Shown: positions 1 through 64,000, counted from the stretch's first letter. The stretch: DNA of 64,000 nt from Abditibacterium sp. (GCA_965199495.1 CBDASK010000003.1:192001-256000), one strand, 5' to 3'. Made by a program: numbers and translations. The notes: generated by a model not told the origin, from the sequence alone.

Positions 1-1296
1 CGGAATCGGCGGCGGCGCATCGCCAAACGCATCGGATGGGTTGTCGCCGACGCGAAAAGTGGTGGCGCCAGCGACTGTCGGCGCGTCGGCGGGCACATCA
101 ACCGGGCCGTTGGCGGCGTTTTCGGTGACGTAGGGGAAATCAATGCGAATCCGCTCGACATTGGCCAGACAAGTATTGGCCCATGTCGGCAATGGCTTAT
201 TGGCCAAAACCCAGAACGTCGGCATCGGCTCCCAATCTTTCTTGCCGACTTTCTGAACTTCAAAGGCGAATCGCGAAATCAAACTGTCGGTAAAAACCGG
301 TTCGTTGATGTCGCTTACGTCGTAACGCGGGCGCAAAAACTGGCTGAATAAGGGCGCGGTGCCTTCCCACGAACGGTCGGTCGCCGAAACCGGGCCAACG
401 ACCATCCACTGCGTCAGTTCGCGGATGTAATGGGTTTCAGGACTCATCGCGTGGTTGGCGGGCACGATCTGAAAACTGCCGACGACGCCATAGGGCGAGG
501 TCGAAATATCAATCACGCCGTTGTGGTTGGCGCGCAAGCGTCCGACGCCCGAAAAATACGAACCGACGAAACGTCCGATGCCCAAAACCGGGCGCAAAAC
601 GGTGCCAATGGCGCGTGGCTGTTCGTTGGCGTAGCGAATCGTGATCAGGCCGCCGAAACGGTTCTCGAAGATAATTTCGCGCGGATACCGCACGGGGCGC
701 CGAATTTGGATGACCCAATTATCGCCCAATTTCGGCGTGTAATTGTTGGGCAGTGGCGTCAAAACGTTATTGCGGTCGTTATCCAAAAATATCGGATTGC
801 CGACGAACGGCGTATAAACGCCGCCGAAAATGCCGGTTCCGCCGGGCATATCGGTGTAGGCGGCGCTTTGCGGCGAAACCTCCGATTGCAGCGAGTTTTT
901 TCCCGCGTCGGTGTTGGACGAGGGCGCCAGACTCCAGATAATTCCGCGATCCAGTTTGGTGTTTTGCCCGGCTTTGAGGTGAATCGCGTTGACAGCCGTC
1001 GCCTCGACCGTGCCGGGCGGGCCGTAGCGCGCGGCGGTATAGCCAATCGGGTTGGTTTTAATCACGGGAACGGCAATATGGCCGACGGTTTCCCAAGTTT
1101 TTCCTTCGTCGCGCGAGCCTTCGATGACGCCGCCTTTGATGTTTTGCAAGCGCAGGCGCGCGATTTCGATGGTTTGGGTCTGGTTTTCGGATTCGACTTC
1201 GGGCGACGGCCCGTTGCCCGCCGTTGTCGCGTAAGTCGGAGTTTTCAGGCTGACGAGCGCGCAAAAGGCCAATAAAATGAGGGAGAGCTTTCTCAT
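1..1296 (-). CDS. secreted hypothetical protein, 3' end runs off the window
   Basis: Hand translation from ATG at 1296: MRKLSLILLAFCALVSLKTPTYA (signal peptide-like) ...EIARLRLQNIKGG...IIFENRFGGLI...GRLRANHNGVIDISTSP; absent from the ORF track, consistent with no stop inside the window. Confidence 0.8.
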   Translation of the reverse strand, partial: MRKLSLILLAFCALVSLKTPTYATTAGNGPSPEVESENQTQTIEIARLRLQNIKGGVIEGSRDEGKTWETVGHIAVPVIKTNPIGYTAARYGPPGTVEATAVNAIHLKAGQNTKLDRGIIWSLAPSSNTDAGKNSLQSEVSPQSAAYTDMPGGTGIFGGVYTPFVGNPIFLDNDRNNVLTPLPNNYTPKLGDNWVIQIRRPVRYPREIIFENRFGGLITIRYANEQPRAIGTVLRPVLGIGRFVGSYFSGVGRLRANHNGVIDISTSPYGVVGSFQIVPANHAMSPETHYIRELTQWMVVGPVSATDRSWEGTAPLFSQFLRPRYDVSDINEPVFTDSLISRFAFEVQKVGKKDWEPMPTFWVLANKPLPTWANTCLANVERIRIDFPYVTENAANGPVDVPADAPTVAGATTFRVGDNPSDAFGDAPPPIP

Positions 1297-1450
1297 GGTG
1301 GGAATTTCGTTTGCAACGCTTCGATGCGCGGGTTCAACCGACGCGCCAGAGTTTTGGCAAACAACGGAGAGACAGTCTAAAGCCTTCGTCCGTTGCGCTT
1401 CCCCTTCGCCCTCGTCCCGATTTTCAAGTTCAGTGGAGAATTAACATTTT

Positions 1451-3025
1451 ATGGCCCTTTCCGCCGCCGCGCGCGCCGCGCTCGATCAATTCAAGTCCCA
1501 ACAAAACTCGTCACAATATGTAGACGACGAACTCGCCCCAACAGCAGCCACGGCGCCCGCGCCCACGATGCAAATTCCGCCGCCCGTTGTGCCCTTCGTG
1601 CCCGTGGCTGTTGCGCACGATGCCAAGCTCAACGGCGCCGCGCCTTCGGAAGTCGCGCACTGGGAGCGCATCAACGACCCTTCGACGGCGATTCAAATGG
1701 GCGGATTATTCCGGCCCGAACAGCCCAAAACCTTTCGCGAAAGCGGCATTTCGTATCGCGTTTTGGAAGGTCTGATTCTGAAAATCATCAAGCAGGAAGG
1801 CCCGCAAAACGAGGCGCAACTCGCCGATATGATGAAGATTTCGGCCAACGTGTTTCGCGAGATTTTGAGTTCGCTCAACAAGCGCGAACTTTTGGACACG
1901 CCGATGCCGTTGCACTACGATTTGACCGGCAAGGGCCGCGAACTGGTCGCAATGGTCGAAAAAGAAGACGGTTATATCGGCCCGGCGCCCGTGCCGTTTT
2001 CGCAATACGTCGCGATGGTCGAGCAGCAGGCCAAGCGCGAGCGGCGCATTACCATGAACGAAATGGACGAAGTTTTCGCTTCGTATCCGATGCGGCCCGA
2101 ACTGAAAAACACGCTCAAAGAAGGCTTCAACTCGCAGCGCGTGATGATTTTCTACGGCCCGCCCGGCAACGGCAAATCGCTCATCACCGATAACTTGCAC
2201 CGACTTTTGCGCGAACCGGTTTTGCTGCCGTATGCGTTCGAGTTCAACTCGAAAGTCGTCAAATTATACGACGGCGCGTTTCACCACACCAAAGACGATT
2301 TGATGAAACACGAAGAGGACGAAACCGCCGGTAGCGTTTCGACGGCGGGCAAACCCGACCGCCGCTGGCTGATCTGCGATCCGCCTTTGGTTGTCGTGGG
2401 AACCGAGTTCAAAGTCGCGCAGTTCGACATCACTTTTGACGGCCAATACTTCGCTCCGCCGCACATGAAAGCCAACAACGGCATCTTCATTTTCGACGAT
2501 CTGGGGCGCCAGGCCGAAGATCATAATATGATTTTGAACCAGTTCATTTATCCGCTCGAACATCGCGCCAGCATCATTCGTTTCGCCGGTGGCAGCAGCT
2601 TGCGCGCGCCGTTTTTGCAGCGCTTGTTTCTTTCGACCAACCTCAACCACGAAGATATTTTGGACGACGCGTTCAAGCGCCGCCTGTTGTATCAAGTTTT
2701 GGTGGATCGTCCGACGACGAAGTTGTGGAAGCAGATTTTCATGAACGAATCGGGCAAAGTCGGCATCGAGAAAGGCGCCGCCGCGCTGTTTGCCGATCAG
2801 GTCGTGGATTGGTATCGCGCCGATGACCGCGTTTTCCGCGCCTGCGACCCGCGCAACCTGATGGTGATGGTGGACGCCAGCCTCGATCCAGGACAGACCG
2901 CCGCGCAGATGCTCGATATGAATTTGATGCGCAACGTCTACGAACGCTACCCGGCGGCGCTGCGCAAAGACGCCAAGTTCTTCGTCGGCTCGATGGACTC
3001 GACCGGCGCGGGCGACGAAGAGTAA
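1451..3025 (+). CDS. AAA+ family ATPase with N-terminal winged-helix-like region
   Basis: Walker A GPPGNGKS, Walker B IFIFDDLG, LSTNL sensor, DDAFKRR arginine finger. Confidence 0.8.
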   Translation: MALSAAARAALDQFKSQQNSSQYVDDELAPTAATAPAPTMQIPPPVVPFVPVAVAHDAKLNGAAPSEVAHWERINDPSTAIQMGGLFRPEQPKTFRESGISYRVLEGLILKIIKQEGPQNEAQLADMMKISANVFREILSSLNKRELLDTPMPLHYDLTGKGRELVAMVEKEDGYIGPAPVPFSQYVAMVEQQAKRERRITMNEMDEVFASYPMRPELKNTLKEGFNSQRVMIFYGPPGNGKSLITDNLHRLLREPVLLPYAFEFNSKVVKLYDGAFHHTKDDLMKHEEDETAGSVSTAGKPDRRWLICDPPLVVVGTEFKVAQFDITFDGQYFAPPHMKANNGIFIFDDLGRQAEDHNMILNQFIYPLEHRASIIRFAGGSSLRAPFLQRLFLSTNLNHEDILDDAFKRRLLYQVLVDRPTTKLWKQIFMNESGKVGIEKGAAALFADQVVDWYRADDRVFRACDPRNLMVMVDASLDPGQTAAQMLDMNLMRNVYERYPAALRKDAKFFVGSMDSTGAGDEE

Positions 3026-6124: not shown

Positions 6125-6505
6125 ATGAGTAAAATCGAACTTTCCGCCACGACGTCCACGCCCGCAATTACCGCCGATGAGCAAACCGGCCACTTAGAAA
6201 TGCGCGGCGATTCTTATCCCGAAAACTCGTTCGAGTTCTTCGCGCCCATCGTCGAATGGGTGCAAGATTACCTCAAAACGCCCAATAATTCGCTCGATGT
6301 CGCGCTGCATCTGCTCTACCTCAACACCAGCAGCGTGCGCGCGATGATGGATATTTTCGAGTTGCTCGAAGACGCCCACAACAGCAGCCACGCCGTCTGT
6401 GTGCGGTGGTTCTACGACGAAGATAACGACCGCATCGCCGAACTCGCCGAAGAGTTCAAAGAAGATTGCACCTTTCCCTTTGACATTTTGCCAACGCCCG
6501 CCTAA
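6125..6505 (+). CDS. siaC: biofilm regulation phosphoprotein SiaC (DUF1987)
   Basis: GDSYPENSFEFF, LYLNTSS (phospho-Thr motif), AEEFKEDCTFPF. Confidence 0.9.
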   Translation: MSKIELSATTSTPAITADEQTGHLEMRGDSYPENSFEFFAPIVEWVQDYLKTPNNSLDVALHLLYLNTSSVRAMMDIFELLEDAHNSSHAVCVRWFYDEDNDRIAELAEEFKEDCTFPFDILPTPA

Positions 6506-8664: not shown

Positions 8665-9672
8665 TTATGGTTTCTCCGTCACGAAATCGAATTCGATGGC
8701 GAATTCGCGCGTTTCGCCCGCCTGTAAAATTGGCATTTCGCCGCGCTCCAACAACTGCGCGCGCGAGGCGAGCGGCGCGTTTGATGGTTCCAATCCCATC
8801 ACGTAGGCGCCCGCGCCGAGCATTTTCCACTGCGTCAAAAACGGCAGTTGCGCGCGGTCGAATTTCAATTGCACGCCCAATTTGCGCGCTTCGTTCCAAA
8901 TCGCGGCGACGGCGTGGCTGCTTGCGTCGCCGCGCAGTTGATGAAAGAAAACTTGTTCTTTATATCCCACTTGCGGCGACTCGACATTCGCCCAATTCGC
9001 CAATCCGCGCGCCGCATCTTCGTCGCGCGCTTGCACATCAAATTCAACGATGATTTGCGCGCCTTCTTCCAAAAGCGGATAGCCAAAATTGCAATGATAC
9101 AGCACGCAAAACGGCGCCGCCTCGAAGCCCGCATTGCGAATTTCATCGCGCAAAATTAACCGATTTTCGCCCAACTTCATCGAAAGCGTGCGACGCAATT
9201 CCAGATTGGCGCCGAACAATCGCGTTTGGCGCACGATGCCGCTCAAGCGAAATTCACAATCATCGTCATCACGCCAGATCGTTTGCGGCACGACTTCGCG
9301 CGCGGGCGTATAGGCGATGCGGTCGTGAATGCCCCACTTTTCGCCGTCAATTTCGCACGGCGGGCCAAACGACTCTAATCCGCAAGTCGTCACCAAACCG
9401 CAGGGCGCACCGCGCAGCCAATCGAAATTATCGGCGCCATAAAACGCCGGATGAGCGGCGCCATTGGGATGGCGCCACGTCAAATTGACGCCGTTGAGTT
9501 CCGCAAAAACTATGTCCATTGCGCGCGATGGACAAATGCCAATACGCAAGCCCGCGCCCGAACGCATTTCGATCATTTCGACGCCATTTTCGTGTCCATC
9601 GCGCAAAGTCGCGCGCGTGAAACCGGCGATTTGCGAGAGGTCGGCGTAGGATTCCAATTGTCTTCGATTCAT
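8665..9672 (-). CDS. aldose 1-epimerase family protein (DUF4432-like)
   Basis: SRAMDI, LVTTCGL, LYHCNFGYPLL, YVMGLEP motifs. Confidence 0.8.
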   Translation of the reverse strand: MNRRQLESYADLSQIAGFTRATLRDGHENGVEMIEMRSGAGLRIGICPSRAMDIVFAELNGVNLTWRHPNGAAHPAFYGADNFDWLRGAPCGLVTTCGLESFGPPCEIDGEKWGIHDRIAYTPAREVVPQTIWRDDDDCEFRLSGIVRQTRLFGANLELRRTLSMKLGENRLILRDEIRNAGFEAAPFCVLYHCNFGYPLLEEGAQIIVEFDVQARDEDAARGLANWANVESPQVGYKEQVFFHQLRGDASSHAVAAIWNEARKLGVQLKFDRAQLPFLTQWKMLGAGAYVMGLEPSNAPLASRAQLLERGEMPILQAGETREFAIEFDFVTEKP

Positions 9673-9829: not shown

Positions 9830-10765
9830 TCATTTATCGTCACACGTATTTGTCATTGCCAATGTCGAATCCCAATCGCCCAATCCGGCGACGGTTCCGA
9901 CGGCGCTCACGCAACGCGCGCCGGTCGCGTTGCCCATTTTCAAACGGGTTTCCATCGGCAAAGCGCGCAAAGTCGCCGCCAGAAATCCCGCCGCGAATGC
10001 GTCGCCCGCACCCGTCGCGTCAACGACAGCCACGGCGAAGGCGTCGGCGCGCGCACTTTGGCCCTGAGCGTTCAAAGCATAACTTCCGGCCTCGCCCATT
10101 TTGATGGCGACGCAACCGACGCCTTCATCAATCAGGCGCGCGGCGACGGGCGCGCGGCAATCGGGGAATAAATCGCGGACTTCGTGCAGGCTGGGCACAA
10201 AATAATCGAGATGCGGCAAACACAACCGCAGATTTTGGCGCCAAAGGTCACCGGGCGCGCCCGCCGTATCGAGCGATGTTTGGATGCCCATCCGTTGCGC
10301 GTGGCTCAACAATTCGGCGCAGGGCGCGCCATCGAAAGCGGGCATCAAACCGTGTCCGGCGATATGTAATAATTGCGCGCCGTTCAAGGTTTCGCGGCGG
10401 AAGTCGGCGCTTCCAAACGCGGCGTTGGCGCCGACGCAATGCAAAAACGCGCGTTCGCCATCGGGCGAAACCAAAACCATCGTCGCGCTGGTCGGCGCGT
10501 CTTTTTCGACGACGCCGCGCGCATTAATGCCCTCGGCGCGCAAAACGTCGCGCACGAATTGGCCGAAACCATCGCGCCCGACGGCGCCGACGATGGCGGT
10601 TTCGACGCCCAATCGGTGCAAGCCGATACCCGTATTGGCCGCGCAACCGCCGATATGCGGCGTGATGGACTCGACGAGCGCCAAAGCGCCGGGCGCGGGC
10701 ACGGCTTCGATGGGACGGCCAATGACATCGGCGACTAAAATTCCCAGACAAATAACGGCGGGCAT
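9830..10765 (-). CDS. PfkB family carbohydrate kinase
   Basis: GGCAANT and DATGAGDAFAAG signatures. Confidence 0.9.
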   Translation of the reverse strand: MPAVICLGILVADVIGRPIEAVPAPGALALVESITPHIGGCAANTGIGLHRLGVETAIVGAVGRDGFGQFVRDVLRAEGINARGVVEKDAPTSATMVLVSPDGERAFLHCVGANAAFGSADFRRETLNGAQLLHIAGHGLMPAFDGAPCAELLSHAQRMGIQTSLDTAGAPGDLWRQNLRLCLPHLDYFVPSLHEVRDLFPDCRAPVAARLIDEGVGCVAIKMGEAGSYALNAQGQSARADAFAVAVVDATGAGDAFAAGFLAATLRALPMETRLKMGNATGARCVSAVGTVAGLGDWDSTLAMTNTCDDK

Positions 10766-11097: not shown

Positions 11098-12189
11098 ATG
11101 AAAAATCAAGAAAAGGCCAAACATCGGGTGGTGCGACAGGCTTTAACCGAGTCCATTCGTCGCGGCGAATATAAGCCGGGCGAACGCATTCCCGCCGAGC
11201 GCGACTTGGCCGAAATTTACGGCGTTTCGTATATGACTGCGCGCCGCGCCGTCACCGAAATGGTCGAGGTGGATTTGCTGCGTCGCCGTCCGCGCGAGGG
11301 CACGTTTGTGCCGCCGCGCAGCGTCAAGCGGCTCGCTGCCAAAACGGTTCATCTGGTTTGTCCTGGCTTTGGTTCGCCCATGATGAGAACCTTTTTGCAG
11401 GCGGGCGACCAACAAGCCGAGGCACGTGGCTGGCGCACCGAAGTGATTCAACTGCACCATTCGCAGGTGCGCCCGGTGGCGCGCGCGCTGGAGGGCGGCG
11501 ACATGATGGTGATGTTGCCTTCTGGCCCCGACCTCGAAACGACGATGGTCGAGACGCTGCAAAAAGCCGAGGGCCGCGCCGTTTTGCTGGGCAACCGATT
11601 CGATCATCTGGGCATTCCCTCGGTCATGGCCGACGATGCCGAGGGCATTCGATTGGCGATGGAGCATTTGCAGGGGTTTGGTCACCGCGAAATCGCGATC
11701 ATGACAGCCACGCCCGACCACAACGTGGATCGCGTGCAAATCGCGGCGTGGCGCGCGGCCTCGCCCGCCGATTGGGACGAGGAACACTTCGCCAAGCGCA
11801 CGATTAGGGTGGAGACGCCGCGCCACGAAAGCCACGATGATACCGTTTATCAGGCGCTCGGCGAATATCTCGCGGCGGATAACGGGGAAACCACGGCGAT
11901 ACTCTGTCTGCTGGAACGCATGGCGCTGCCCGCCCTCGCCGCCTGTCGCGACGCCGGGCGCGCGGTGCCAGACAAAATGTCGCTGATCGCATCGGGCAAC
12001 AATCCCACGCTCGCCTACGCGCATCCGCCCGTGACCTGCATTGACGTTCACGTCGAAGAACACATGGAAAAGGCGCTTCAGTTTTTCGATAAATTTTTGG
12101 AAGGCAAACTCGCCGATTCCGATTTACTCCATTTGATTACGCCCCATTTGGAACTGCGTAAAAGCGTGCAAAATCCGCCCGCGATATAG
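11098..12189 (+). CDS. GntR-family regulator with LacI-type sugar-binding domain (AraR-like)
   Basis: GERIPAERDLAEIYGVSYMTARRA HTH; GHREIA and PPVTCI LacI-type motifs. Confidence 0.9.
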   Translation: MKNQEKAKHRVVRQALTESIRRGEYKPGERIPAERDLAEIYGVSYMTARRAVTEMVEVDLLRRRPREGTFVPPRSVKRLAAKTVHLVCPGFGSPMMRTFLQAGDQQAEARGWRTEVIQLHHSQVRPVARALEGGDMMVMLPSGPDLETTMVETLQKAEGRAVLLGNRFDHLGIPSVMADDAEGIRLAMEHLQGFGHREIAIMTATPDHNVDRVQIAAWRAASPADWDEEHFAKRTIRVETPRHESHDDTVYQALGEYLAADNGETTAILCLLERMALPALAACRDAGRAVPDKMSLIASGNNPTLAYAHPPVTCIDVHVEEHMEKALQFFDKFLEGKLADSDLLHLITPHLELRKSVQNPPAI

Positions 12190-16820: not shown

Positions 16821-16832
16821 GTGTGACCAAAC

Positions 16833-18455: not shown

Positions 18456-18463
18456 ATTAGGTC

Positions 18464-21911: not shown

Positions 21912-21957
21912 TTGCTTGTTTACTCCTTTAGGTTTGGTGTTGTTCGTCGGCGTGGCT

Positions 21958-30433: not shown

Positions 30434-30471
30434 CGAATTATTATCAATTAGCGTGTGCAGCCACGTCGCCT

Positions 30472-33088: not shown

Positions 33089-34279
<1,191 letters not shown>

Positions 34280-52766: not shown

Positions 52767-53780
52767 TTACGGCTCAAAACTCACCGATTCTTTCGGCTCT
52801 TGGCCCTGCGCGAACCATTTGATGTGCCCATCAGCGAACGCGATATTCGATCCGCCCAAATGGCGATAAGCGCGCTCGTCGGCCACGCCGAAGGCGTTGC
52901 GCGTTAAATCGTTGGTCTCGTAAATCGCCACGGTTTGCGCGGGGTTATTCATTTTTGCCAAGCCCAATCCGTCCAAATTTTGATTGAGCGCATAACCGTA
53001 ATTGTCGCCATCGGGCAGCGACGGACAACGAAAAATTTGCTCGTTTTTCACATAAGGCATCACGTTATCAATCCATTTGCGCGCGGTCGGAAAAGTTTCG
53101 TTGTAATCCTGCGAATACTGCAAAATTCCCAACATCATTTGCTTGAGATTCGATTGGCAACTGCTGCGTCGCGCGTTTTCGCGTTCGCTTTGAAACGCGG
53201 CGCTGTTGGCCAAAGTCGGCGCTTCGATGCCGGTGAACTTATACCAAGCCACGTCGAGGTCTTCGCCATTCAAATCGTTCCAGCGCCCGTAAGTCGCTTT
53301 CAAATCCACGCGAAAACCACCGTCTTCGGCGATGACGACGACCGCGCGTTTGCGGGCGGGCGCGGGCGCAACTTCGACTAACGTTTGTTCACCTTCTTTG
53401 CCAACGACTTTTGCTTCGTATTGCGGCTCATCTTTTTGTTGCGCCAGCAAGACAAATAATTTCAACGCACCTTCATCTTGCCCTCCCTTAAATTCATTAG
53501 CGGCGATAGCTTCGAGTTGCGCGCGCGAAATTGAATTTAGATAAGGGCGCACCTGTTCCGAACCAAATTTTATCGAGAGGCCCGATAACGGTGCTCCCGC
53601 CGACAAGAACTGGTAAAACCGTTCCCCTGCCGCTTCGGGCGTTTTGGCGGGCGCCGGATACTCGTTCGCCGTGGCTGCATCGGCAGCCACGGCGTCTTGG
53701 GCGTGCGCGATGGGCGCATTGGCCAACACAATCGCACCGCACAGCGATAGGGTTAGTCGCAGAAATCTAAATTGGGACAT
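52767..53780 (-). CDS. secreted protein with C-terminal DUF1559 / H-X9-DG domain
   Basis: ARRSSCQSNLKQ..QYSQDY; HLGGSNIAFADGHIKW. Confidence 0.85.
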   Translation of the reverse strand: MSQFRFLRLTLSLCGAIVLANAPIAHAQDAVAADAATANEYPAPAKTPEAAGERFYQFLSAGAPLSGLSIKFGSEQVRPYLNSISRAQLEAIAANEFKGGQDEGALKLFVLLAQQKDEPQYEAKVVGKEGEQTLVEVAPAPARKRAVVVIAEDGGFRVDLKATYGRWNDLNGEDLDVAWYKFTGIEAPTLANSAAFQSERENARRSSCQSNLKQMMLGILQYSQDYNETFPTARKWIDNVMPYVKNEQIFRCPSLPDGDNYGYALNQNLDGLGLAKMNNPAQTVAIYETNDLTRNAFGVADERAYRHLGGSNIAFADGHIKWFAQGQEPKESVSFEP

Positions 53781-54093: not shown

Positions 54094-57000
54094 ATGAAAT
54101 TTATTCTTCCGCTCGCCATCGTCGTCTGTGCCCTGCCCGCTCGCGCGCAAAATCCGCTTGTCGTGCGCGTTCTCGACGAAAGCGGTCAGCCCGTCGCGGG
54201 CGCGCTTGTCGCGGCGCAAACTTACGAAAAAGACGCGCCCAAAACCGCGACGCAAACGACCGATGCCAGTGGCCAAGCGAATTTTTCGTTGCCCAATCAA
54301 GCCGACGGCAAACCGACGACAGCCACCGTCACGGCGGGCGCCAGAGGTTATAGTTTCAGCGCGTCCAGTGGCGCGAATAAGTCGGTCGAAATCCGATTGA
54401 CGCGCGGACAGATTTGGCGCGGCAAAGTTGTGGACGAGAAAGGCGCGCCGCTCGCAAACGCGCAAATCGTGATTAACGGCGCAATGAAATTCATGGATTT
54501 CGGAGGCGCGATTTTCATCGAAAGCGACGCGATAAAAGCGCTTTACAGCGCCCAGTCCAAAGCCGATGGCACGTTTGAAATCGCCGGTTTGCCCGCGAAT
54601 AAACAATTGTTCTATCGCGTGTCGTTGCCGGGCTTCGCTCCGGTAAAAGAGCAAGACGGGCGCGTAGATAAACCCGAAACTTTCAAATTAGTGCGCAGTG
54701 GAGCTTTGCGCGGGCGGGCACTGGGCATCGCGGGCGAGCCGTTGGCGGGCGTTCAGGTTTTCGCGACTTCTCGGACGACTTCATCAATGGAAGTCAGCGA
54801 TGAAGTCAAAACCGATGCGGAGGGCGCTTTTACCCTCAGCGGTTTGCCGCCCGGCGACTATGAATTGCACGGGACTTTGAGGGACAAAATGCCGTTTTTG
54901 TTATTGAATCTCAAAGATGTGCGTGTTGTGGCGGGACAGACAGCCACGGCGGGCGAATGGCGAGCGATTAAAGGCGTCGAGATTCGCGGTTTCGTGTTCG
55001 ATAGCCTCACCAAAAAGCCGATTGAGAACGCCATTTTTTCCGCGCAAACCAAAGCCGACGAGAAAAGCGGCAGCGATTCGGCGTGGGCGACCAGCGATGC
55101 CACCGGGCACTTCGTTTTGCACGTTTTGCCCGGTGATTATCGCGTGCGCGTTGGTGGCAACGCGCCCGGTTATTTGAGTGCGCCGACGATTCGGAGCGCG
55201 CAACCCAAAGCAGGCGCGCCCGCGCAGGTGAGTTTCGAGCTGCAAAGCGCGCCGATTGTGCGCGGCATCACGCGCGACGAAAAAGGCGCGCCCCTCCAAG
55301 CGCAACTGCTCGTCGGCACGTTTGGCCAACCGCTCGAAACCGACGCGCAGGGCAAATGGCAATATACGCCCTTCAATGCGAGCGCCATTACTTTTGGCGG
55401 CGGCGAAGACGACGACGGATATTTCGAGATTATCTCGCCCAAACGCGTGGACTTTCCTGCCAAAGGCCCGATTGTGGTGACGGTGCGCCGCCATGCGTGG
55501 CAACAATTGGCGGGCCGCGTCGTCACGCCCGACGGCGCGCCGATTGAGGGCGCGACGGTCAAAGCGACTTTTACCGTGATGACCAGCGACCGCAACGGTC
55601 GCGGCGCGCAGAGCAGCGCGCTGAGCGACCAAGACGGCCGCTATGTTTTGCGGCGTCTGCGCGATTCGCGTCAGCCCTATGTGACGAACAGCGAAATCAA
55701 AGTTTCGGCCAAAAAAGACGGTTACGATTTTGAGAGCGGCGGCAAAGTCACGCGCGAAGGCATCGAGCCGCGCGTCAGCGATCTGGTTTTGGTACCGCTT
55801 TCGGTAAAAATCAGCGGCGTAACTTCGGCGGGCGCCGATGTCGTCGTCGCGGGCCGCCAAACGCGAGCCGACGACGCGGGCCGTTTCAGTTTCGAGTCGA
55901 TTCCGGCGGGCGAAAACCGCGTTTACGCCGCCAAAGGCGATTTGTTTGGCAGCGCGCCCGCGTCGCAATCGCCGCTCGAAATCGCGTTGTCGCGCCCGCA
56001 AGCGCAACCGCGCGACGAAGTTTTGGCGCGCGAAGTGTGGGCCAATAATGTCGCTGCACAGACCGACCAAAGCACGCTTGATTTGGATCAATGGTCGCAA
56101 AGCAGCGATTTTGCGGGAAAGTTGCGCGTCGCACAACGGAGCGGCAATCCGTGGCAAATCGGCGCCGCGCTGGGGCGTCTGAAGCCGACCGATTCGCCCG
56201 CAGCGCAGGCGATTGCGCGCGAAACTTTGAACGAAATGGCACCTTCGGAGGCGCGGACGGGCGCGTTTTTGGAAATCGCGCTTTCGAGCGGCGACGCCGC
56301 GTTGACCGACCGCGCGCTCGAACTCGCCAACGCGCAATTTGAAGAACAGACGAAGGACAGCCAATCGCGCGAAGCCCAGCTTTATCAAGCCGCCGTTTTG
56401 ACCGAGCGCCGCGACGGCGCACAGGCGGGCGCGCTGGTTTTGCGCCGCGCGCTGGCTTACACGTTGCGCAATCATCCCGAACAATCGCGCGTGGAAGGCG
56501 GCTATCAAACCGCCGTCGGGCGCAACGAAACGCTGGGCCGCATCGCCGCCCCGATTGTCGCGCAGGGTTCGCCCGCGATGCTGCGCGAACTGCTGGAAAC
56601 CATCGAACCCGCTTCGGGCTTCGCGGTTATGGCGCGCCTCGAAGCGATTCCGGTCATCGCGCGCGTTCACGGATATAAAGCCGCCGCGCCAGTGTTGGAA
56701 GAGTTGCGCCAACTGCCAGCGCCCGCAGCCGAAGGTGAAATGGGTTATCGCGGTTTCGATGCGAATTGGGCTTATCGTCAGGCGATTGGCGACATTATCC
56801 CAATCATCGGGCCAACCGATGCAGCCACGGCGCTGGCGCTGGCAGATAAAGTCGAGGGCGACGACGAACAACGCGGGCGGGCGTTGGCGAGCGCGGCGCG
56901 TTTCCAGTCGCTCGCCGTGGCTGCTCCGTTGTTGAGGGAAGCCGCCGAGAAAATCGACGTCGAAAACGCGCCGCGCGTGGCCGCGTATGCCTACGAGCGC

Positions 57001-57544: not shown

Positions 57545-58003
57545 CGCTTTGCCCCAGCCCAGCGCCAGAGCTAACAAGACGTAAACCGCGAATAATCCCC
57601 TATTCGATAATTTGGTTTCAAACCCCGGCTTGTAACGCTGCGGCGCTAATTTGAAATCCACGACGTAAGCGAGGGCCGAAACCAGAAAACCGCCCGCCAG
57701 CGAAACACCCCATTTTCCTTGGTCGCGCGCGCGGCCAAAAATCCATTCGTGCAACAGCGCCCAACTCGTGACGGAAACCTGATTGAGCACCAAAGCCGCG
57801 CCAGTATATTTGAGCGAAAGTTCGCTCTGCTCCAAACCTTCGTCGCCCCACGCGATATGCGAAACCGTATTAATCGCCGCCAAACCGTCGCGATTTTCGA
57901 GTTGGCCCATAACAGCCACGGCGGCGGCGGCGCTGATGGCGACGAGTTGCGAACGCACGGCGCCATCGCGCAGAGTTTGAAACGGAGATTTGAGAAAGCT
58001 CAT
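57536..58003 (-). CDS. membrane hypothetical protein
   Basis: INTVSHIAWGD, LAYVVDF..P.R.KPGFE..LS; stop codon lies inside the repeat arm. Confidence 0.75.
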   Translation of the reverse strand: MSFLKSPFQTLRDGAVRSQLVAISAAAAVAVMGQLENRDGLAAINTVSHIAWGDEGLEQSELSLKYTGAALVLNQVSVTSWALLHEWIFGRARDQGKWGVSLAGGFLVSALAYVVDFKLAPQRYKPGFETKLSNRGLFAVYVLLALALGWGKASE

Positions 58004-58100: not shown

Positions 58101-58622
58101 TTACATGGCGGCGCTGCGAGCGCCATAGTTGGAAAGCACGTCTTTGACGGCGCTTTCGTTAAGGCCAGTCGTGTCAATCGCGACGAGGGTGCTGCCACCC
58201 TCGATGGCTTGGCCGTAATAGTTGGACTCGTGTTCGTCGTAACCAGCGTTAGCCAGCGCGCTGGCAATTAAACCGGTCGTGCCGCCCACAACCGCACCAG
58301 CCACGGCGCCGCCGCCGACGGCGCCCAAGGCCGTCGAAAGCAACGTGCCCGCCGTGATGAACGGGCCAACGCCCGGAATCAAAGCCGCCGCGATGCCGAA
58401 CAACGCGCCGACCCCCATACCCGCCACGGTGCCTTTGGCCACGTCGCCGCCATCGTGTTCCACAACGGTGTCATTGCCCGCGACAGCGCCACCATTGCCC
58501 TGACGCGCGATGATGGACATCTGGGAATCGTTTACGCCCAATTGGCGCAGTTCGTTCACGGCAGCCTCAGCGTGCGCGCGGTCGTCAAAAAGAACCGTCA
58601 TGCGGTTTGTCATTGAATTCAT
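58101..58622 (-). CDS. general stress protein-like, Gly-zipper membrane protein
   Basis: AEAAVNELRQLG, LIPGVGPFITAG, Y...IEGG..LV. Confidence 0.75.
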   Translation of the reverse strand: MNSMTNRMTVLFDDRAHAEAAVNELRQLGVNDSQMSIIARQGNGGAVAGNDTVVEHDGGDVAKGTVAGMGVGALFGIAAALIPGVGPFITAGTLLSTALGAVGGGAVAGAVVGGTTGLIASALANAGYDEHESNYYGQAIEGGSTLVAIDTTGLNESAVKDVLSNYGARSAAM

Positions 58623-58741: not shown

Positions 58742-59734
58742 TTAATTTTCAACCAACGGTTTGAACATCCATTGGCTTGCGGGAACCTCGCCTTCGATTA
58801 TTTGGCCGTCGCGTTTGACGGGGAAACGGACGGACATTATGTCCGCATCGTCATAACGAAAAGTTTCCGAGACCCACGGATCCGCAAACACTTCCTCATT
58901 GGGATTCTCGCTCCATGTAAAGCGCACTCTGGTGTTGCGATAGGGAATCGGCACGGGCGCGCTGTTGGTTTCAAAGCCGTCAAAACCTTTGGAGGTATAG
59001 CTAAATATCGCGTTTTTGCGGATGGGAATGCCATCAGCATCGGTAAATTCTACTGAGCGTTCAAGCTCTGGCTTCCCAGCGCGCGCCAAACGTCCCGCGA
59101 CCATAATGTCGGCGCCATATTTGATTTCGCGCGATGGAACATTCATATCGAAACCGAGGCGAAACACGCGCACCCACTTCACCCAGACCGAAGGCGTGGG
59201 CGCGACGAGTTGGGCGTCGGCGTAACCTTTGGGCGGACGCGCACCGAATGCCACGGTAAATGGTAAATTGGTCTGCGCGGTAATCGGAGCATTGATTTCC
59301 GTCTGATCGCGAAAAATGATGGGCAAATTTCCGGCGTAATTGAGCGCGACACTTTGGGGCCAAAATTTGCTTTTTATCGGCGCTCGCACGCGCACGGTGT
59401 AAAGTCCCAACGATTCGTTCCAGCGCGGTGTGTAAGCCGTAGAATAAATCATTTCGAGTTCGCTCGTTTGTCCGGCTTTGGTCTGCGTTAAACGCGCCTG
59501 GAAATCTTCGGGCTTGCCGCTGTTCGTGACGAAATCGCGGCCCCACCACGCCGGGCGCGGATTGGCGCCAATGAAAAAGTCCAAACCGATCATGCTATTT
59601 TTGGGTTCGCCAGCGGATTCCTGCGTGACGGGCATCGCGTCCACGATATAGAATCGCGGTTCTGCCGCGTGGGCGTGGCTGGTAGTGGCGCACAGCAGAC
59701 AAAGCGTAATGAGAAGCCTCAAAAATATTTTCAT
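58742..59734 (-). CDS. secreted hypothetical protein
   Basis: Signal peptide ending HAHA-A; 330-aa ORF. Confidence 0.7.
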   Translation of the reverse strand: MKIFLRLLITLCLLCATTSHAHAAEPRFYIVDAMPVTQESAGEPKNSMIGLDFFIGANPRPAWWGRDFVTNSGKPEDFQARLTQTKAGQTSELEMIYSTAYTPRWNESLGLYTVRVRAPIKSKFWPQSVALNYAGNLPIIFRDQTEINAPITAQTNLPFTVAFGARPPKGYADAQLVAPTPSVWVKWVRVFRLGFDMNVPSREIKYGADIMVAGRLARAGKPELERSVEFTDADGIPIRKNAIFSYTSKGFDGFETNSAPVPIPYRNTRVRFTWSENPNEEVFADPWVSETFRYDDADIMSVRFPVKRDGQIIEGEVPASQWMFKPLVEN

Positions 59735-62246: not shown

Positions 62247-62251
62247 CAATT

Positions 62252-64000
62252 CTACTCCCGCCCGCGCCACCAATTCCACGCCGACACAACGCCCACACCA
62301 ACAGCCACGGCGCCCGCGCCGATGATGGCGATTGTCTTCAACAGCGACGGTTGCGACGGATAGCTCGCCGCGAATTTGTCCGGCGATTCGCTCGGCCCGC
62401 GCACGCCCTGCGTTTGCGCGAGATGCAGCACTTCGGCCAAGTGCAGCGCGTGACGTTCGGTGGTTTGCGAGATTTGTTCGCGGCACGAAAAACCGTCGGC
62501 GATGAGAAGCTCGTCGTCGTTGGCATCGCGCACGGCGGGCAAAAGCACGCGTTCGCCGCACTTAATCGAGACATCGTAATGCTCGCCTTTCTCGAAACCG
62601 AAGGCGCCCGCCATGCCGCAACAACCGGAATCCAACTCGTTGAAATCTACGCCCATGTCGCGCAGAATTTCGATTTCATCGGTCATGCCCATAATCGAAA
62701 TATGGTGACAATGGCCGTGAACGACGGCTTTGCGTTCGAGTTTCGGCGCTTGCCAATTTTTCAAATGGCCATTAAGATATTCCGACAGCAAAAGCGTGTT
62801 GCTTTTCAGGCGTTGCGCATCGTGATCGTTGGGAAACAGATTGGTCAGCTCGTCGCGAAAAGTCGCGCAACAGCTCGGCTCCAAGACGATCATCGGCGTG
62901 CCCTGGCGGATTTCTTCGCGTAGGGCGGCCAAGATTTTTTGCAACCAATCTTTGGCCATGCCAAGCATTCCGAAATCGTAGAGCGGGCGTCCGCAGCACA
63001 AAAATGGGAACGGCACCACGACGTTGCAACCGGCGTTTTCCAAAACTTCGCACGCGGCTTGGGCCGTCGTCGGGTGGAAATAGTTGTTGAAACTATCGGG
63101 AAACAGAATCACGCGCGGCCCGGTCGCGTGCGGATCGAAAATCGTGGTGCGCGCGTGGCCGCTCTCGTCGTGGGGTTTCCAGCCGCGCTGCGTCATGCGC
63201 GCCACGAACCATTCTTTGAACGAATGATCGGCAAACGGCGGCATCCGGCGCTGCGGCGCGATGCCGACGACGGCTTTAAAAGCGTCGCTCAGAAGCGGCG
63301 ATTGCGTGGCGAAGTTGGCCAAAAATCGCAGATAGGGAACGGCGAAAACGAAGCGCGAAACCTGCGAAATCACGCCGAAAACGTAGGCGTGAACCGGGCG
63401 CAAACGGCCTTTGTAATAGTGCGCCAAAAACTCGGCTTTGTAGGTCGCGATATCCACTTTAACCGGGCATTGGCCTTTGCAGCCCTTGCACGACAAACAC
63501 AAATCGAGCGATTCTTTGACGTGTTCGTCCTTCCAGCCGTCGGCGATGGTTTCGCCGCGCAACATCTCGAACAGCATATGGGCGCGCCCGCGCGTGACGT
63601 GTTCTTCTTCGCGCGTGACCTGATAACTTGGACACATCAAACCGCCGTCTTCGCGGCGACATTTGCCCACACCAACGCAACGCAACGTCGCGCGCGCGAA
63701 ACTGCCGTTGTCATCGGGGAATTGGAAGTAGGTTTCCGGCTCGTCGGGATTGTAATCGGTGCCCAAACGCAGATTCGACAAAATCGGATAAGCGTTGACG
63801 ACTTTGCCGGGATTGAGCCGGTTTTCCGGGTCGAAAATCGTCTTCATTTCGCCCATCGCTTGCATGATTTGTGGGCCGAACATCATCGGCAATAGCTCGG
63901 CGCGCGACTGGCCGTCGCCATGTTCGCCCGACAGCGAGCCGCCATAACTCACCACCAACTTCGCAGCAGCCACGGCGAAGGCGTGATAATTTTCCAAACC
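62252..64000 (-). CDS. FAD-linked / 4Fe-4S oxidoreductase (GlcD-GlcF fusion type), 5' end outside the window
   Basis: SGEHGDG, LNPGK, CVGVGKC, CLSCKGC..CP, two CCG motifs. Confidence 0.9.
   Translation of the reverse strand, partial: GLENYHAFAVAAAKLVVSYGGSLSGEHGDGQSRAELLPMMFGPQIMQAMGEMKTIFDPENRLNPGKVVNAYPILSNLRLGTDYNPDEPETYFQFPDDNGSFARATLRCVGVGKCRREDGGLMCPSYQVTREEEHVTRGRAHMLFEMLRGETIADGWKDEHVKESLDLCLSCKGCKGQCPVKVDIATYKAEFLAHYYKGRLRPVHAYVFGVISQVSRFVFAVPYLRFLANFATQSPLLSDAFKAVVGIAPQRRMPPFADHSFKEWFVARMTQRGWKPHDESGHARTTIFDPHATGPRVILFPDSFNNYFHPTTAQAACEVLENAGCNVVVPFPFLCCGRPLYDFGMLGMAKDWLQKILAALREEIRQGTPMIVLEPSCCATFRDELTNLFPNDHDAQRLKSNTLLLSEYLNGHLKNWQAPKLERKAVVHGHCHHISIMGMTDEIEILRDMGVDFNELDSGCCGMAGAFGFEKGEHYDVSIKCGERVLLPAVRDANDDELLIADGFSCREQISQTTERHALHLAEVLHLAQTQGVRGPSESPDKFAASYPSQPSLLKTIAIIGAGAVAVGVGVVSAWNWWRGRE

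What the first reader, a model, noticed from the sequence alone, without database searches (positions are those of the whole stretch)
614..63974. Highly iterated non-palindromic motif CAGCCACG(N)CG: candidate DNA-uptake or HIP1-like genome signal
Seen in sequence (hand count, a minimum): CAGCCACG on + at 1545, 6385, 10027, 11705, 13258, 15217, 16177, 18969, 20554, 20799, 23032, 25294, 30458, 31941, 33463, 36066, 38450, 40033, 42361, 47459, 48230, 49944, 53684, 54941, 56822, 57913, 58298, 62302, 63967 (29 sites). Its complement CGTGGCTG occurs at 614, 1603, 8913, 11425, 14473, 17525, 20469, 21951, 22919, 23964, 31277, 46239, 48918, 49913, 53670, 56916, 59674 (17 sites). That is about 1 per 1.4 kb; a zero-order estimate at about 58% GC gives 3-4 in total. 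Most sites are inside genes, often followed by NCG, and often use ACA/GCA/GCT codons that look uncommon here. Variants such as TAGCCACG and GAGCCACG are also frequent. Established: Neisseria DUS and Pasteurellaceae USS are non-palindromic, on both strands, about 1 per kb and often in inverted pairs; Chi and KOPS are strongly strand-polarised; HIP1 is palindromic. Inference: an undescribed uptake sequence, protein-binding site or methylation-linked motif in this lineage.
Basis: partly seen in the sequence, partly recalled or inferred. Interest (0 to 1): 0.85.

Follow-up and report, generated by a model that had tools for sequence, protein, structure and literature searches.

The report
Strand-tiled hyper-abundant genome word, Abditibacteriaceae
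This soil or rock bacterium writes the short DNA word CAGCCACG(G/C/T)CG about once every 1.5 kb into its own chromosome against its normal codon habits, much like the self-recognition words that some bacteria use when taking up DNA from their own kind, and each DNA strand is tiled with it separately.

Summary
The chromosome holds 3083 copies, equally on both strands.

The full word is W-N-CAGCCACG-B-CG. It survives a protein-preserving synonymous shuffle 11-fold and shows no useful replichore polarity. It is at background on the two small contigs and sparse in low-GC stretches. It arises in place by point substitution and overrides codon usage.

Only 3 of 13 genus members carry it, and one of them uses a longer, hairpin-forming dialect. 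Other species of the family carry two unrelated words at similar density.

A further feature: same-strand copies exclude each other over about 0.5-1 kb, while opposite-strand copies are independent.

Best reading: a DUS/USS-like self word tied to natural transformation, read in a strand-specific way. Its function is untested. Chi-like, HIP1-like and REP-like readings fit less well. A candidate helicase-nuclease reader was tested and rejected.

Earlier notes of this scan report comparable words in other phyla.

The parts
614..621 (-). word copy, core only
1545..1552 (+). word copy, full (CAGCCACG[GCT]CG); with 1603(-) forms a loose inverted pair
1603..1610 (-). word copy, core only
6385..6392 (+). 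word copy, full
8913..8920 (-). word copy, full
10027..10034 (+). word copy, full
11425..11432 (-). word copy, core only
11705..11712 (+). word copy, core only
13258..13265 (+). word copy, full
14473..14480 (-). word copy, full
15217..15224 (+). word copy, full
16177..16184 (+). word copy, core only
17525..17532 (-). word copy, full
18969..18976 (+). word copy, full
20469..20561 (.). two inverted copies (20469-20476 -, 20554-20561 +) bounding a 93-nt near-perfect hairpin between ribosomal-protein genes
   Evidence: fold of 20440-20590: -92.9 kcal/mol
20799..20806 (+). word copy, full; shared with G004; G011 and three outgroups have unrelated letters at the orthologous site
21951..21958 (-). 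word copy, full
22919..23039 (.). two inverted full copies (22919-22926 -, 23032-23039 +) bounding a 121-nt hairpin that holds an inverted pair of GTAG-type REP-like units
   Evidence: (fold of 22890-23070: -127.9 kcal/mol)
23964..23971 (-). word copy, core only
25294..25301 (+). word copy, core only; G000-specific, made by substitutions relative to G004 and three outgroups
30458..30465 (+). word copy, full
31277..31284 (-). word copy, full
31941..31948 (+). word copy, full; core shared by G011 and G004, absent in three outgroups
33463..33470 (+). word copy (core) inside the EF-Tu gene; shared by G011 and G004; outgroups differ by 1-2 letters
36066..36073 (+). word copy, core only
38450..38457 (+). 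word copy, full
40033..40040 (+). word copy, full
42361..42368 (+). word copy, full
46239..46246 (-). word copy, full
47459..47466 (+). word copy, full
48230..48237 (+). word copy, full
48918..48925 (-). word copy, full
49913..49951 (.). inverted pair (49913-49920 -, 49944-49951 +), 31 nt apart
53670..53691 (.). tight inverted pair (53670-53677 -, 53684-53691 +): 12-bp stem, 4-nt loop, inside the 5' part of an ORF as I called it
54941..54948 (+). word copy, full
56822..56829 (+). word copy, full
56916..56923 (-). word copy, full
57913..57920 (+). word copy, full
58298..58305 (+). word copy, full
59674..59681 (-). word copy, core only
62302..62309 (+). word copy, full
63967..63974 (+). word copy, full

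Best explanation
CAGCCACG[GCT]CG (fuller form W-N-CAGCCACG-B-CG) is a lineage-specific 'genome word'. A sequence-reading machine of the cell favours it, so point mutations that create it spread and are kept, even against codon preference. Most likely it works like the DNA uptake sequences of Neisseriaceae and Pasteurellaceae: it marks DNA of the bacterium's own kind during natural transformation and accumulates by biased uptake or integration plus recombination. The spacing data add one step. The word is read on one strand at a time, or by a reader moving in one direction, and one good copy per strand per roughly 0.5-1 kb is enough, so further same-strand copies nearby gain nothing and are not built or kept. 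Shown here: the DNA-level enrichment, the origin by substitution, the conservation, the depletion in atypical DNA, the dialect, and the strand-specific exclusion.
For: The word occurs 46 times in the window against 2.2 expected and 3083 times on the chromosome, 1558 + and 1525 -. Its two main 11-mers are the commonest 11-mers of the genome. Specificity is sharp: 349 copies of the 13-mer consensus against 0-23 for each single change at a defined position. A synonymous shuffle within genes (30 shuffles) gave 97 +/- 11 sense and 151 +/- 12.5 antisense copies, against 1210 and 1517 observed. All six frames and intergenic DNA are used. Rare codons are recruited, and the encoded tripeptides are 1.3-1.5 times expectation against 0.9-1.1 in motif-less genus members. 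This matches the abstract of PMC2817400 for DUS/USS. Strand bias is only about 52:48 per replichore. Relative to 40 same-composition 8-mers the word is enriched 10-11 fold in typical 10-kb windows, 3.7-7.3 fold in windows under 51% GC, and about 1.7-1.8 fold on contigs C1 and C2. Origin is in situ: orthologous sites in motif-less relatives differ by 1-6 letters. Between G000 and G011, 118 sites are shared, 45 are G000-only and 30 are G011-only, so 72-80% are conserved against 38% for all 8-mers in the same 221 kb. The word is clade-restricted: the 11-mer count is 1692 in G000, 1392 in G011 and 413 in G004, while the other 28 relatives are at control level. G004 keeps the core at 0.685 per kb but as GACACCAGCCACGTCCTA, 62 of 86 copies intergenic, and I saw many in long inverted pairs flanked by A and T runs. 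Within 60 bp there are 99 inverted against 6 direct neighbour pairs, and some pairs lie between convergent genes followed by a T run. The mean gap of 1529 nt compares with about 1500 nt between composite DUS in meningococci (passage of PMC2397512). ComEC, ComEA (SLBB+HHH_3), DprA, PilC, PilD, four pilin-like genes and secretins are present. For strand-specific reading: same-strand pairs are at 0.10, 0.25, 0.29, 0.53 and 0.85 of expectation at 0-60, 60-200, 200-400, 400-800 and 800-1500 bp, while opposite-strand pairs are at 0.91-1.10 beyond 60 bp. Eleven other 8-mers of similar abundance show no same-strand depletion. The effect recurs in the G011 and G004 samples, grows with word quality, and reaches one-off variants on the same strand only.
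Against: No uptake or transformation data exist for this organism or phylum in what I could search; one search lists 188 papers, and none of the 20 shown deals with competence. The competence and pilus genes are not specific to the motif-bearing genomes: secretins occur in 13 of 13 genus members. ComEC, ComEA and DprA were looked for only in G000. No candidate receptor was found. In Haemophilus influenzae, uptake does not depend on the orientation or position of the uptake sequence (passages of PMC1939737). A classical uptake word should therefore show orientation-blind redundancy, whereas here the exclusion is strictly same-strand. I could not test whether true DUS/USS show the same spacing rule (searches failed to reach a Neisseria genome). 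Words differ completely between species of one family, a faster turnover than the one- to three-letter DUS dialects (recalled from Frye et al. 2013, seen only in the search listing). My gene calls are home-made (ORFs of 80 aa or more, longest start), so genic and intergenic counts are approximate.
Confidence: 0.45

Rival explanations
1. The word is an intracellular, strand-specific signal for a translocating repair or recombination enzyme, Chi-like in logic. Each orientation stops or modulates an enzyme arriving from one side, so the benefit of a new copy grows with its distance from the next same-strand copy. DNA lacking the word, such as plasmids and phages, is less protected.
For: Same-strand exclusion with smooth recovery over about 1.5 kb and full independence of the opposite strand is what a directional reader predicts. 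The word is at background on the two small contigs and sparse in low-GC stretches. Relatives use palindromic or hairpin words that serve both strands at once.
Against: There is no replichore polarity, about 52:48. From recall, known Chi sites are strongly co-oriented with replication and are 5-8 nt long, against 11-13 here. No RecC was found. Only two PD-(D/E)XK_1 matches exist, and neither is in an AddAB- or RecB-type protein. The one large helicase-nuclease does not track hyper-abundant words across genomes.
Confidence: 0.2
2. The word is HIP1-like: tied to a DNA methyltransferase or a repair bias that converts near-matches into the word, with a role in chromosome biology or DNA exchange that is still debated even for HIP1.
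For: Enrichment of 10-fold and more, origin by substitution, conservation and fairly even spacing (10-kb window counts have mean 6.54 and variance 5.61) recall what the abstracts of PMC5861425 and PMC4390886 report for HIP1 (start of abstracts only). Word C of the sister genus is a true 12-base palindrome at 0.7-0.9 per kb.
Against: The word is not palindromic, and its 11-13 contiguous specified positions exceed any contiguous methyltransferase target I recall. Vsr was not found in G000 or G011. C5 methyltransferases occur in 8 of 13 genus members without an evident clade-specific copy. N6/N4 methyltransferases were not examined. The word is confined to 3 species rather than conserved phylum-wide.
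Confidence: 0.12
3. The word is a binding site of a nucleoid-associated or other architectural protein that organises the chromosome and has nothing to do with DNA exchange.
For: The word has even genome-wide coverage, with no cluster above 5 copies in 1.5 kb, and equal strand use. From recall, Karlin proposed such roles for USS; a passage of PMC1939737 cites this.
Against: A double-strand binder should not distinguish same-strand from opposite-strand neighbours. Complete replacement of the word between sister species, and its absence from most genus members, is hard to reconcile with an essential architectural role.
Confidence: 0.12
4. The word is the footprint of a mobile or selfish repeat (REP/RAYT, MITE) or of selection against close direct repeats, or merely a by-product of peptide and codon usage.
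For: In G004 and G017 most copies sit in extragenic palindromes, as REPs do. Y1 transposases are present in 12 of 13 genus members. Among the few close same-strand pairs, long identical runs are rarer: a run of 13 or more in 1.0% against 6.9% of distant pairs.
Against: In G000, 2732 of 3083 copies are inside genes, in all frames. No flank is conserved beyond 13 nt. Copies arise by substitution at orthologous sites. G000 has separate classical GTAG-hairpin REP-like families of 157 and 123 copies. The shuffle test rules out a peptide or codon artefact. Same-strand exclusion also affects pairs whose identical run is only 8-9 nt (median 9) and one-off variants, too short for efficient slippage.
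Confidence: 0.04

Closest known systems
DNA uptake sequences: DUS of Neisseriaceae and USS of Pasteurellaceae (DUES)
   Same: Both are non-palindromic words of about 10-12 nt, on both strands in equal numbers, at roughly one per 1-1.5 kb and without polarity around the chromosome. Both occur inside genes in biased frames with an effect on tripeptide frequencies. Both are rare in recently acquired DNA, form inverted pairs that make terminator-like hairpins, and have lineage-specific dialects. Sources; the abstracts of 10.1101/2025.10.24.684340 and PMC2817400; passages of PMC1939737 and PMC2397512.
   Different: The phylum is different (the nearest named relative is an Abditibacteriaceae MAG), and no competence data exist. 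No ComP- or ComN-type receptor was identified. The spacing rule is strictly same-strand, whereas USS-dependent uptake is orientation-independent. The word is replaced entirely between species of one family rather than by one- to three-letter dialects.
HIP1 (GCGATCGC) and variant highly iterated palindromes of cyanobacteria
   Same: Both show hyper-abundance, origin by substitution, conservation and quasi-even spacing. A proposed link to DNA exchange appears in recent work (start of abstracts only).
   Different: HIP1 is a palindromic octamer recognised by orphan methyltransferases and is conserved across a phylum. This word is non-palindromic, 11-13 nt long and restricted to three species. Word C of the sister genus (TCGAGTACTCGA) is the closer analogue of HIP1.
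Chi sites read by RecBCD/AddAB
   Same: Both are over-represented in the cell's own DNA and read on one strand from one direction. That kind of reading is the logic the same-strand exclusion suggests.
   Different: Chi is 5-8 nt long and strongly co-oriented with replication (recalled). Here polarity is about 52:48, and no RecC or AddAB-type nuclease was found.
NTS/SRM hairpin repeats cut on single-stranded DNA by Ssn nucleases (PMC11893778)
   Same: This is a precedent for an abundant genomic repeat that is read on single-stranded DNA and modulates natural transformation (abstract and sections 6-7).
   Different: [quoted passage not shown] This word is a short linear motif, evenly spread, and mostly inside genes. 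G000 appears to have a separate SRM-like family.
REP elements with RAYT transposases
   Same: The hairpin forms in G004 (word A') and G017 (word B) are extragenic palindromes in about a thousand copies.
   Different: In G000 the word is 89% genic and is made by substitution. G000's true GTAG-type REP-like families are separate.

Membership tests
DUES (DUS/USS) | Short non-palindromic word, hundreds to thousands of copies, both strands, about 1 per kb | tested here: met
   The chromosome holds 3083 copies, 1558 + and 1525 -, at 0.65 per kb. The logo spans 11-13 nt.
DUES (DUS/USS) | [quoted passage not shown] | tested here: met
   The fraction on + is 0.43-0.56 per 200 kb. The cumulative excess is about 60 of about 1370 sites per replichore.
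DUES (DUS/USS) | Enriched in long-resident DNA, scarce in acquired DNA | tested here: met
   Enrichment is 10-11 fold in typical windows, 3.7-7.3 fold below 51% GC, and about 1.7-1.8 fold on contigs C1 and C2. Motif-free stretches of up to 18.5 kb exist, many of them low in GC.
DUES (DUS/USS) | Inverted pairs forming terminator hairpins | tested here: inconclusive
   There are 86 inverted pairs within 40 bp. Only 16 are intergenic by my calls, a few of them between convergent genes with a T run. In G004, inverted pairs flanked by A and T runs are common. Termination itself was not tested.
DUES (DUS/USS) | Dialects among related species | tested here: met
   G000 and G011 use GCAGCCACG-B-CG. 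G004 uses GACACCAGCCACGTCCTA with the same core at 0.685 per kb.
DUES (DUS/USS) | Competence machinery present | tested here: met
   ComEC, ComEA, DprA, PilC, PilD and four pilin-like genes, and secretins are present. This does not discriminate, because motif-less relatives also have secretins.
DUES (DUS/USS) | Word-bearing DNA is preferentially taken up; a specific receptor exists | not testable with these tools
   This needs uptake and transformation assays and binding studies.
DUES (DUS/USS) | Function independent of orientation (as measured for USS) | tested here: inconclusive
   Spacing here is orientation-specific. Whether DUS/USS genomes show the same rule could not be tested.
Chi | Strong co-orientation with replication | tested here: not met
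   Searches show about 52:48.
Chi | RecBCD or AddAB reader encoded | tested here: not met
   PF04257 (RecC) gave no match. PF12705 gave two matches, a 299-aa protein and a Dna2-like 1421-aa helicase-nuclease. The genome is 95% complete.
HIP1-type palindromes | Palindromic word | tested here: not met
   CAGCCACGBCG is not its own reverse complement.
HIP1-type palindromes | Cognate orphan methyltransferase(s) | tested here: inconclusive
   C5 methyltransferases occur in 8 of 13 genus members with no evident clade-only copy. Vsr was not found in G000 or G011. N6/N4 enzymes and the methylome were not examined.
REP/RAYT | Extragenic imperfect palindrome with 5' GTAG, spread by insertion | tested here: not met
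   The word is 89% genic and arises by substitution. Separate GTAG-hairpin families exist.
KOPS/AIMS | Very strong leading-strand polarity converging on dif | tested here: not met
Ssn-related motifs (SRM/NTS) | Hairpin repeat of about 30 nt, clustered around genes, with an ssnA homolog | tested here: not met
   The word is linear and evenly spread, with at most 5 copies per 1.5 kb. A small GIY-YIG gene exists but fits another repeat family.

The most novel reading that the evidence does not exclude
Abditibacteriaceae carry a family-wide system of fast-changing 'self' words, each laid down separately on the two DNA strands with an exclusion zone of about 0.5-1 kb. There are at least three unrelated words in 27 species genomes: CAGCCACGBCG with a hairpin dialect, the GTACGGTCGA hairpin, and the TCGAGTACTCGA palindrome. 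This would mean a reader that scans single strands, or scans directionally. Palindromic and hairpin words would then simply be the compact way to serve both strands at once.
Probability: 0.3. Interest if true: 0.85.

Novelty: new variant of a known kind. Interest (0 to 1): 0.74.

Why it matters
Sequence-specific DNA uptake is established only in Neisseriaceae and Pasteurellaceae; the abstract of 10.1101/2025.10.24.684340 treats these two families as the known cases. A word with every genomic hallmark of an uptake sequence in a little-studied, deep-branching soil and rock lineage would widen that picture. It would also offer a practical handle for genetics in a phylum with almost no genetic tools: adding the word to donor DNA.

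The strand-specific exclusion rule is a quantitative constraint that any mechanism must explain. It can be checked at once in Neisseria, Haemophilus and the other hyper-abundant words that this scan has turned up in several phyla.

Tried and rejected
**1. Candidate reader.** A 1421-aa protein (C3:4111365-4115630) has an N-terminal PD-(D/E)XK nuclease and a C-terminal SF1 helicase. It matches no known defence family above cut-off. In the genus it was found only in the three word-bearing genomes, 3 of 13. The link failed on wider testing.
- Homologs occur in 22 of 401 phylum genomes.
- Samples of carriers G016, G033, G097, G400, G041 and G136 (83-200 kb each) show no hyper-abundant word.
- The non-carrier G066 has word C at about 1 per kb.
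- Carrier G017 has word B, but that now counts as coincidence.

**2. Control on true DUS.** I tried to reach a Neisseria genome through a 'Betaproteobacteria' MAG locus (L005, which became G401). Its order and class hold only 64 genomes, all at background for the DUS 12-mer and 10-mer. One search was a syntax error. The question of whether DUS/USS show same-strand exclusion remains open.

**3. Identity of contigs C1 and C2.** They are called 'small contigs', not plasmids.

**4. Word clusters around a gene**, as for NTS and ssnA. None was found; the maximum is 5 copies in 1.5 kb.

**5. Position within genes.** There is no strong bias along gene deciles.

**6. Public runs.** Only assembled contigs are held, with no raw reads.

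**7. Literature searches.** The 8-mer as a whole word gave 0 papers. Abditibacterium or Abditibacteriota gave 188 papers, and none of the 20 listed deals with competence or repeats.

**8. Earlier scan notes.** The one note returned for this genome concerns an unrelated TIR gene.

**9. Other genome-wide words in relatives.** The G006 and G012 samples (200 kb each) and the G009 and G010 samples (100 kb each) show none. The top k-mers of G006 are a CRISPR-like repeat.

Full report
**Observation**

One hundred dinucleotide-preserving shuffles gave a mean of 2.22 and a maximum of 6. The window is G000:C3:192001-256000.

- The 4.72-Mb contig C3 holds 1558 + and 1525 - copies (0.65 per kb).
- The two small contigs C1 (24.7 kb) and C2 (64.6 kb) hold 2 and 6.
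- CAGCCACGGCG (1051 copies) and CAGCCACGCCG (640) are the two commonest 11-mers of the genome. CAGCCACGTCG has 421 and CAGCCACGACG 67.
- The logo is W-N-C-A-G-C-C-A-C-G-B-C-G.
- The best 13-mer occurs 349 times, and each single change at a defined position occurs 0-23 times.

**It is a DNA-level signal**

I made my own gene calls (3226 ORF-genes of 80 aa or more, chosen by a codon model, 80.5% of the contig). With these, copies fall in every frame on both coding orientations:

| Frame and peptide | Copies |
|---|---|
| Antisense, reading x-Val-Ala-Ala | 1170 |
| Sense, reading Ala-Ala-Thr | 820 |
| Sense, Ser-His | 308 |
| Antisense, Trp-Leu | 290 |
| Gln-Pro-Arg | 82 |
| Arg-Gly-Trp | 62 |
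| Intergenic | 351 |

Shuffling synonymous codons within each gene (30 shuffles), which keeps the protein and the gene's codon usage, leaves 97 +/- 11 sense and 151 +/- 12.5 antisense copies. The observed numbers are 1210 and 1517.

The word overrides codon preference. GCA and GCT are 5.9% and 10.0% of Ala codons. Yet 548 of 1370 Ala-Ala-Thr are written GCA-GCC-ACG (11.7 expected), and 610 of 1481 Ala-Val-Ala are written GCC-GTG-GCT (17.5 expected).

The four encoded tripeptides stand at 1.31-1.51 times expectation in G000. In samples of four motif-less genus members they stand at 0.91-1.12. Six control tripeptides do not differ in this way. The abstract of PMC2817400 reports the same kind of effect for DUS and USS.

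**No polarity, even spread, scarce in atypical DNA**

- The + fraction per 200 kb is 0.43-0.56. GC and TA skews define weak replichores, and the cumulative orientation excess amounts to about 52:48.
- Counts per 10-kb window have mean 6.54 and variance 5.61. The densest 1.5 kb holds 5 copies.
- Against 40 same-composition 8-mers, the word is enriched 10-11 fold in windows of 51-59% GC, 3.7-7.3 fold below 51%, and about 1.7-1.8 fold on C1 and C2.
- The longest motif-free stretches reach 18.5 kb and are often low in GC.

**Who has it**

The nearest named relative of the window's purA is an Abditibacteriaceae MAG at 82% amino-acid identity.

Among 30 relatives the 11-mer is abundant only in G000 (1692), G011 (1392) and G004 (413), all in one genus. 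The other 10 genus members and 18 more distant genomes are at the level of the reversed-pattern control. G011 and G004 are the closest relatives by DNA identity.

A 400-kb sample of G011 shows the same word at 0.57 per kb. A 260-kb sample of G004 keeps the core at 0.685 per kb, but with the consensus GACACCAGCCACGTCCTA.

- In G004, 62 of 86 copies of ACCAGCCACGTCC are intergenic. In the listing I read, many form long inverted pairs about 33 nt apart with A runs and T runs outside, like bidirectional terminators.
- By contrast, 47 of 53 GCAGCCACG copies in G004 are genic.
- Samples of motif-less G006 and G012 (200 kb each) and of G009 and G010 (100 kb each) show no alternative genome-wide word.

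**Origin and maintenance**

At orthologous sites the outgroups carry unrelated or near-miss letters. In EF-Tu, AACCAGCCACGGC stands against AACCGGC[G/C/A]ACGGC, and at site 20799 the difference is three substitutions.

| Compared with G000 | Aligned, identity | Sites shared | Only in the other genome | Only in G000 | All 8-mers identical |
|---|---|---|---|---|---|
| G011 | 221 kb, 85% | 118 | 30 | 45 | 38% |
| G004 | 160 kb, 81% | 37 | 23 | 70 | 32% |
| G012 | 65 kb, 71% | 1 | 1 | 30 | 12% |

Word sites are thus 72-80% conserved between G000 and G011, against 38% for all 8-mers in the same alignment. At the 30 G000-only sites against G012, the orthologous site differs by 1-5 letters. The word is therefore made in place by point mutation, is kept better than its surroundings, and still turns over.

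**Hairpins**

Within 60 bp there are 99 inverted and 6 direct neighbour pairs. Of 86 inverted pairs within 40 bp, 16 are intergenic by my calls. Some of these lie between convergent genes and are followed by a T run.

In the window the pairs at 53670/53684 and 49913/49944 fold as hairpins. The pairs at 20469/20554 and 22919/23032 bound long, near-perfect hairpins between ribosomal-protein genes. The second of these encloses an inverted pair of a separate GTAG-type REP-like family.

**Strand-specific exclusion**

Same-strand pairs are strongly depleted at short range, while opposite-strand pairs are not:

| Distance (bp) | Same strand, observed/expected | Opposite strand, observed/expected |
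|---|---|---|
| 0-60 | 0.10 | 1.62 (hairpin peak) |
| 60-200 | 0.25 | 0.92 |
| 200-400 | 0.29 | 0.91 |
| 400-800 | 0.53 | 1.04 |
| 800-1500 | 0.85 | 1.10 |
| beyond | 1.05 | 1.02-1.04 |

- Adjacent copies are inverted 1940 times and direct 1142 times.
- Same-strand gaps have a CV of 0.85, and 4.4-4.5% are under 500 bp against 15% expected.
- Eleven other non-palindromic 8-mers of similar abundance show ratios of 1.08 or more at all short ranges.
- The rule recurs in the G011 sample (0.24, 0.30, 0.14, 0.47, 0.73). Beyond its tandem repeats it also recurs in the G004 sample (0.35, 0.25, 0.33, 0.78).
- It scales with word quality. Full-full pairs are at 0.07, 0.11, 0.18, 0.42 and 0.76. Core-only pairs are at 0.64-1.02 beyond 60 bp. 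One-off variants are depleted near a full copy on the same strand (0.35-0.66) but not on the opposite strand (0.92-1.30).
- It holds within genes (0.26, 0.43, 0.64) and across gene boundaries (0.44, 0.61, 0.81).
- Selection against close direct repeats is an unlikely cause. The identical run of close pairs is only 9 nt at the median, and interrupted one-off variants are affected as well.

The simplest reading is that the two orientations are separate signals. Each is read on its own strand or from one direction, and one good copy per 0.5-1 kb makes further copies redundant.

**Other words in the family**

- G017, from another genus, carries 1473 + and 1508 - copies of GTACGGTCGA. The other 26 family genomes have 0-11. 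The unit is the hairpin AGTACGGTCGA-WW-TCGACCGTACT with an A-rich stretch upstream, 81% intergenic, with a gap CV of 0.54-0.56 per strand.
- Three further species of that genus carry the palindrome TCGAGTACTCGA at 2261-2770 sites (0.7-0.9 per kb). One species has 144 sites and the rest 0-2. In the G066 sample, 56 of 106 sites are genic.
- The two words share a half-site, GTAC(GG)TCGA. It is joined head-to-head in one word and tail-to-tail in the other. This fits the idea that the unit read is a non-palindromic half-site needed on both strands.

**Machinery**

G000 encodes ComEC, a ComEA with SLBB and HHH_3 domains, and DprA. A locus holds pilC, pilD, four pilin-like genes and two large ORFs without Pfam matches. 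There are eight secretin matches, and secretins occur in 13 of 13 genus members.

RecC was not found. The only two PD-(D/E)XK_1 matches are a 299-aa protein and a 1421-aa nuclease-helicase. Vsr was not found in G000 or G011. C5 methyltransferases occur in 8 of 13 genus members without an evident clade-only copy. Y1 transposases occur in 12 of 13.

**A lead that failed**

The 1421-aa nuclease-helicase is present in exactly the three word-bearing genus members. I therefore looked further. Homologs occur in 22 of 401 phylum genomes.

- Carrier G017 has word B.
- Carriers G016, G033, G097, G400, G041 and G136 show no such word in samples of 83-200 kb.
- The non-carrier G066 has word C.

The association is explained by shared ancestry and by my having looked at carriers first, and I drop it.

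**Comparison with known systems**

All the genomic hallmarks of DUS and USS are met: length, both strands, density, lack of polarity, genic copies with frame bias, scarcity in acquired DNA, inverted pairs and dialects. This rests on passages of PMC1939737 and PMC2397512 and the abstract of 10.1101/2025.10.24.684340. The mean gap of 1529 nt resembles the roughly 1500 nt between composite DUS in meningococci.

What defines the family, preferential uptake through a receptor, cannot be tested here. One measured property of USS, independence of orientation, does not predict the same-strand rule.

- Chi and KOPS are excluded by the lack of polarity and of a RecBCD/AddAB reader.
- HIP1 differs in being palindromic and methyltransferase-linked.
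- REPs differ in being extragenic and insertional.
- The NTS/Ssn system (PMC11893778: abstract, sections 6 and 7) is a precedent for a repeat read on single-stranded DNA that modulates transformation, but its repeats are clustered 30-nt hairpins.

I found no paper containing the 8-mer as a word. None of the 20 listed of 188 Abditibacteriota papers deals with competence or repeats. Earlier notes of this scan report comparable hyper-abundant words in Pontibacter, other Bacteroidota, Kiritimatiellota, a Helicobacter and a giant virus clade. None mentions strand-specific spacing.

**Verdict**

The feature is real, strong and undescribed. Its most likely role is as a DUES-like self word of natural transformation, read strand by strand (0.45). 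A polarity-free, Chi-like or other strand-reading intracellular signal is the main rival (0.20). A HIP-like role (0.12) and an architectural role (0.12) follow. Function is unproven, and the decisive tests are listed under next steps.

Noticed in passing
genome-wide in G017 (sample L178-L197) and five other genomes of genus g6: Two further hyper-abundant words occur in the same family. One is the hairpin AGTACGGTCGA-WW-TCGACCGTACT, with 2981 half-sites in G017 only. The other is the palindrome TCGAGTACTCGA, with 2261-2770 sites in G066, G164 and G249 and 144 in G131. They share the half-site GTAC(GG)TCGA.
   Followed up: partly
G000:C3:4111365-4115630 (outside the window; L176:7365-11630:-): A 1421-aa protein has an N-terminal PD-(D/E)XK (Cas4/RecB-like) nuclease and a C-terminal Upf1-like SF1 helicase. 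It is patchily present in 22 of 401 phylum genomes and matches no known defence family above cut-off. In G011 it appears in two pieces with a TGA.
   Followed up: partly
window 22927-23031; genome-wide: There are GTAG-plus-hairpin REP-like families: GTAGGGGCGGGGTTCCCCCGCCC-type (123 copies of GTAGGGGC) and GTAGAGACACCGACTTGTCG-type (157 copies). In the window an inverted pair of the first type forms a 121-nt hairpin in the ribosomal-protein operon, bounded by the word.
   Followed up: partly
genome-wide in G000 (not in the window); G000:C3:3607888-3608100: A 121-copy repeat with consensus GTCATTCTGAGCG...GAAGAATCC resembles the published NTS/SRM hairpin repeats. A small GIY-YIG gene (134-aa frame) is present, so this may be an Ssn-SRM system (PMC11893778 section 6).
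   Followed up: no
genome-wide in G000 (not in the window): The unit GTTTTAATCGGGTCTTGTGAGATTGAAAT is present 131 times, and the flanks between units are not conserved. It is most likely one or more CRISPR arrays.
   Followed up: no
window about 31200-31390, 32350-32490, 35620-35800: Short stretches here match dozens of places in G004 in both orientations at 72-88% identity. They are probably MITE-like palindromic repeats shared by the clade.
   Followed up: no
G004:C8, about 1,102,486-1,102,560 and 1,090,944-1,090,980 (L111, L110): The G004 dialect occurs as tandem 18-nt units (GACACCAGCCACGTCCCR). If these lie in a gene they would encode Asp-Thr-Ser-His-Val-Pro repeats.
   Followed up: no
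window 3312-5297, 16800-34300, 50565-51908, 52636-52708: Gene content of the window includes a SiaA-type biofilm phosphatase (923 bits), EF-Tu (33089-34279) with what look like small ribosomal-protein genes upstream, adenylosuccinate synthase and one tRNA. There are also several PAS/GGDEF/EAL and histidine-kinase genes at 36236-44144.
   Followed up: no
genome-wide in G000: CGCGCGC and GCGCGCG are the commonest 7-mers (17505 each) in a genome of only 55.7% GC, so CpG-rich alternating runs are unusually frequent.
   Followed up: no
G000:C3:437068-445604: An 8.5-kb motif-free stretch (GC 0.513) holds the stand-alone 299-aa PD-(D/E)XK gene.
   Followed up: no
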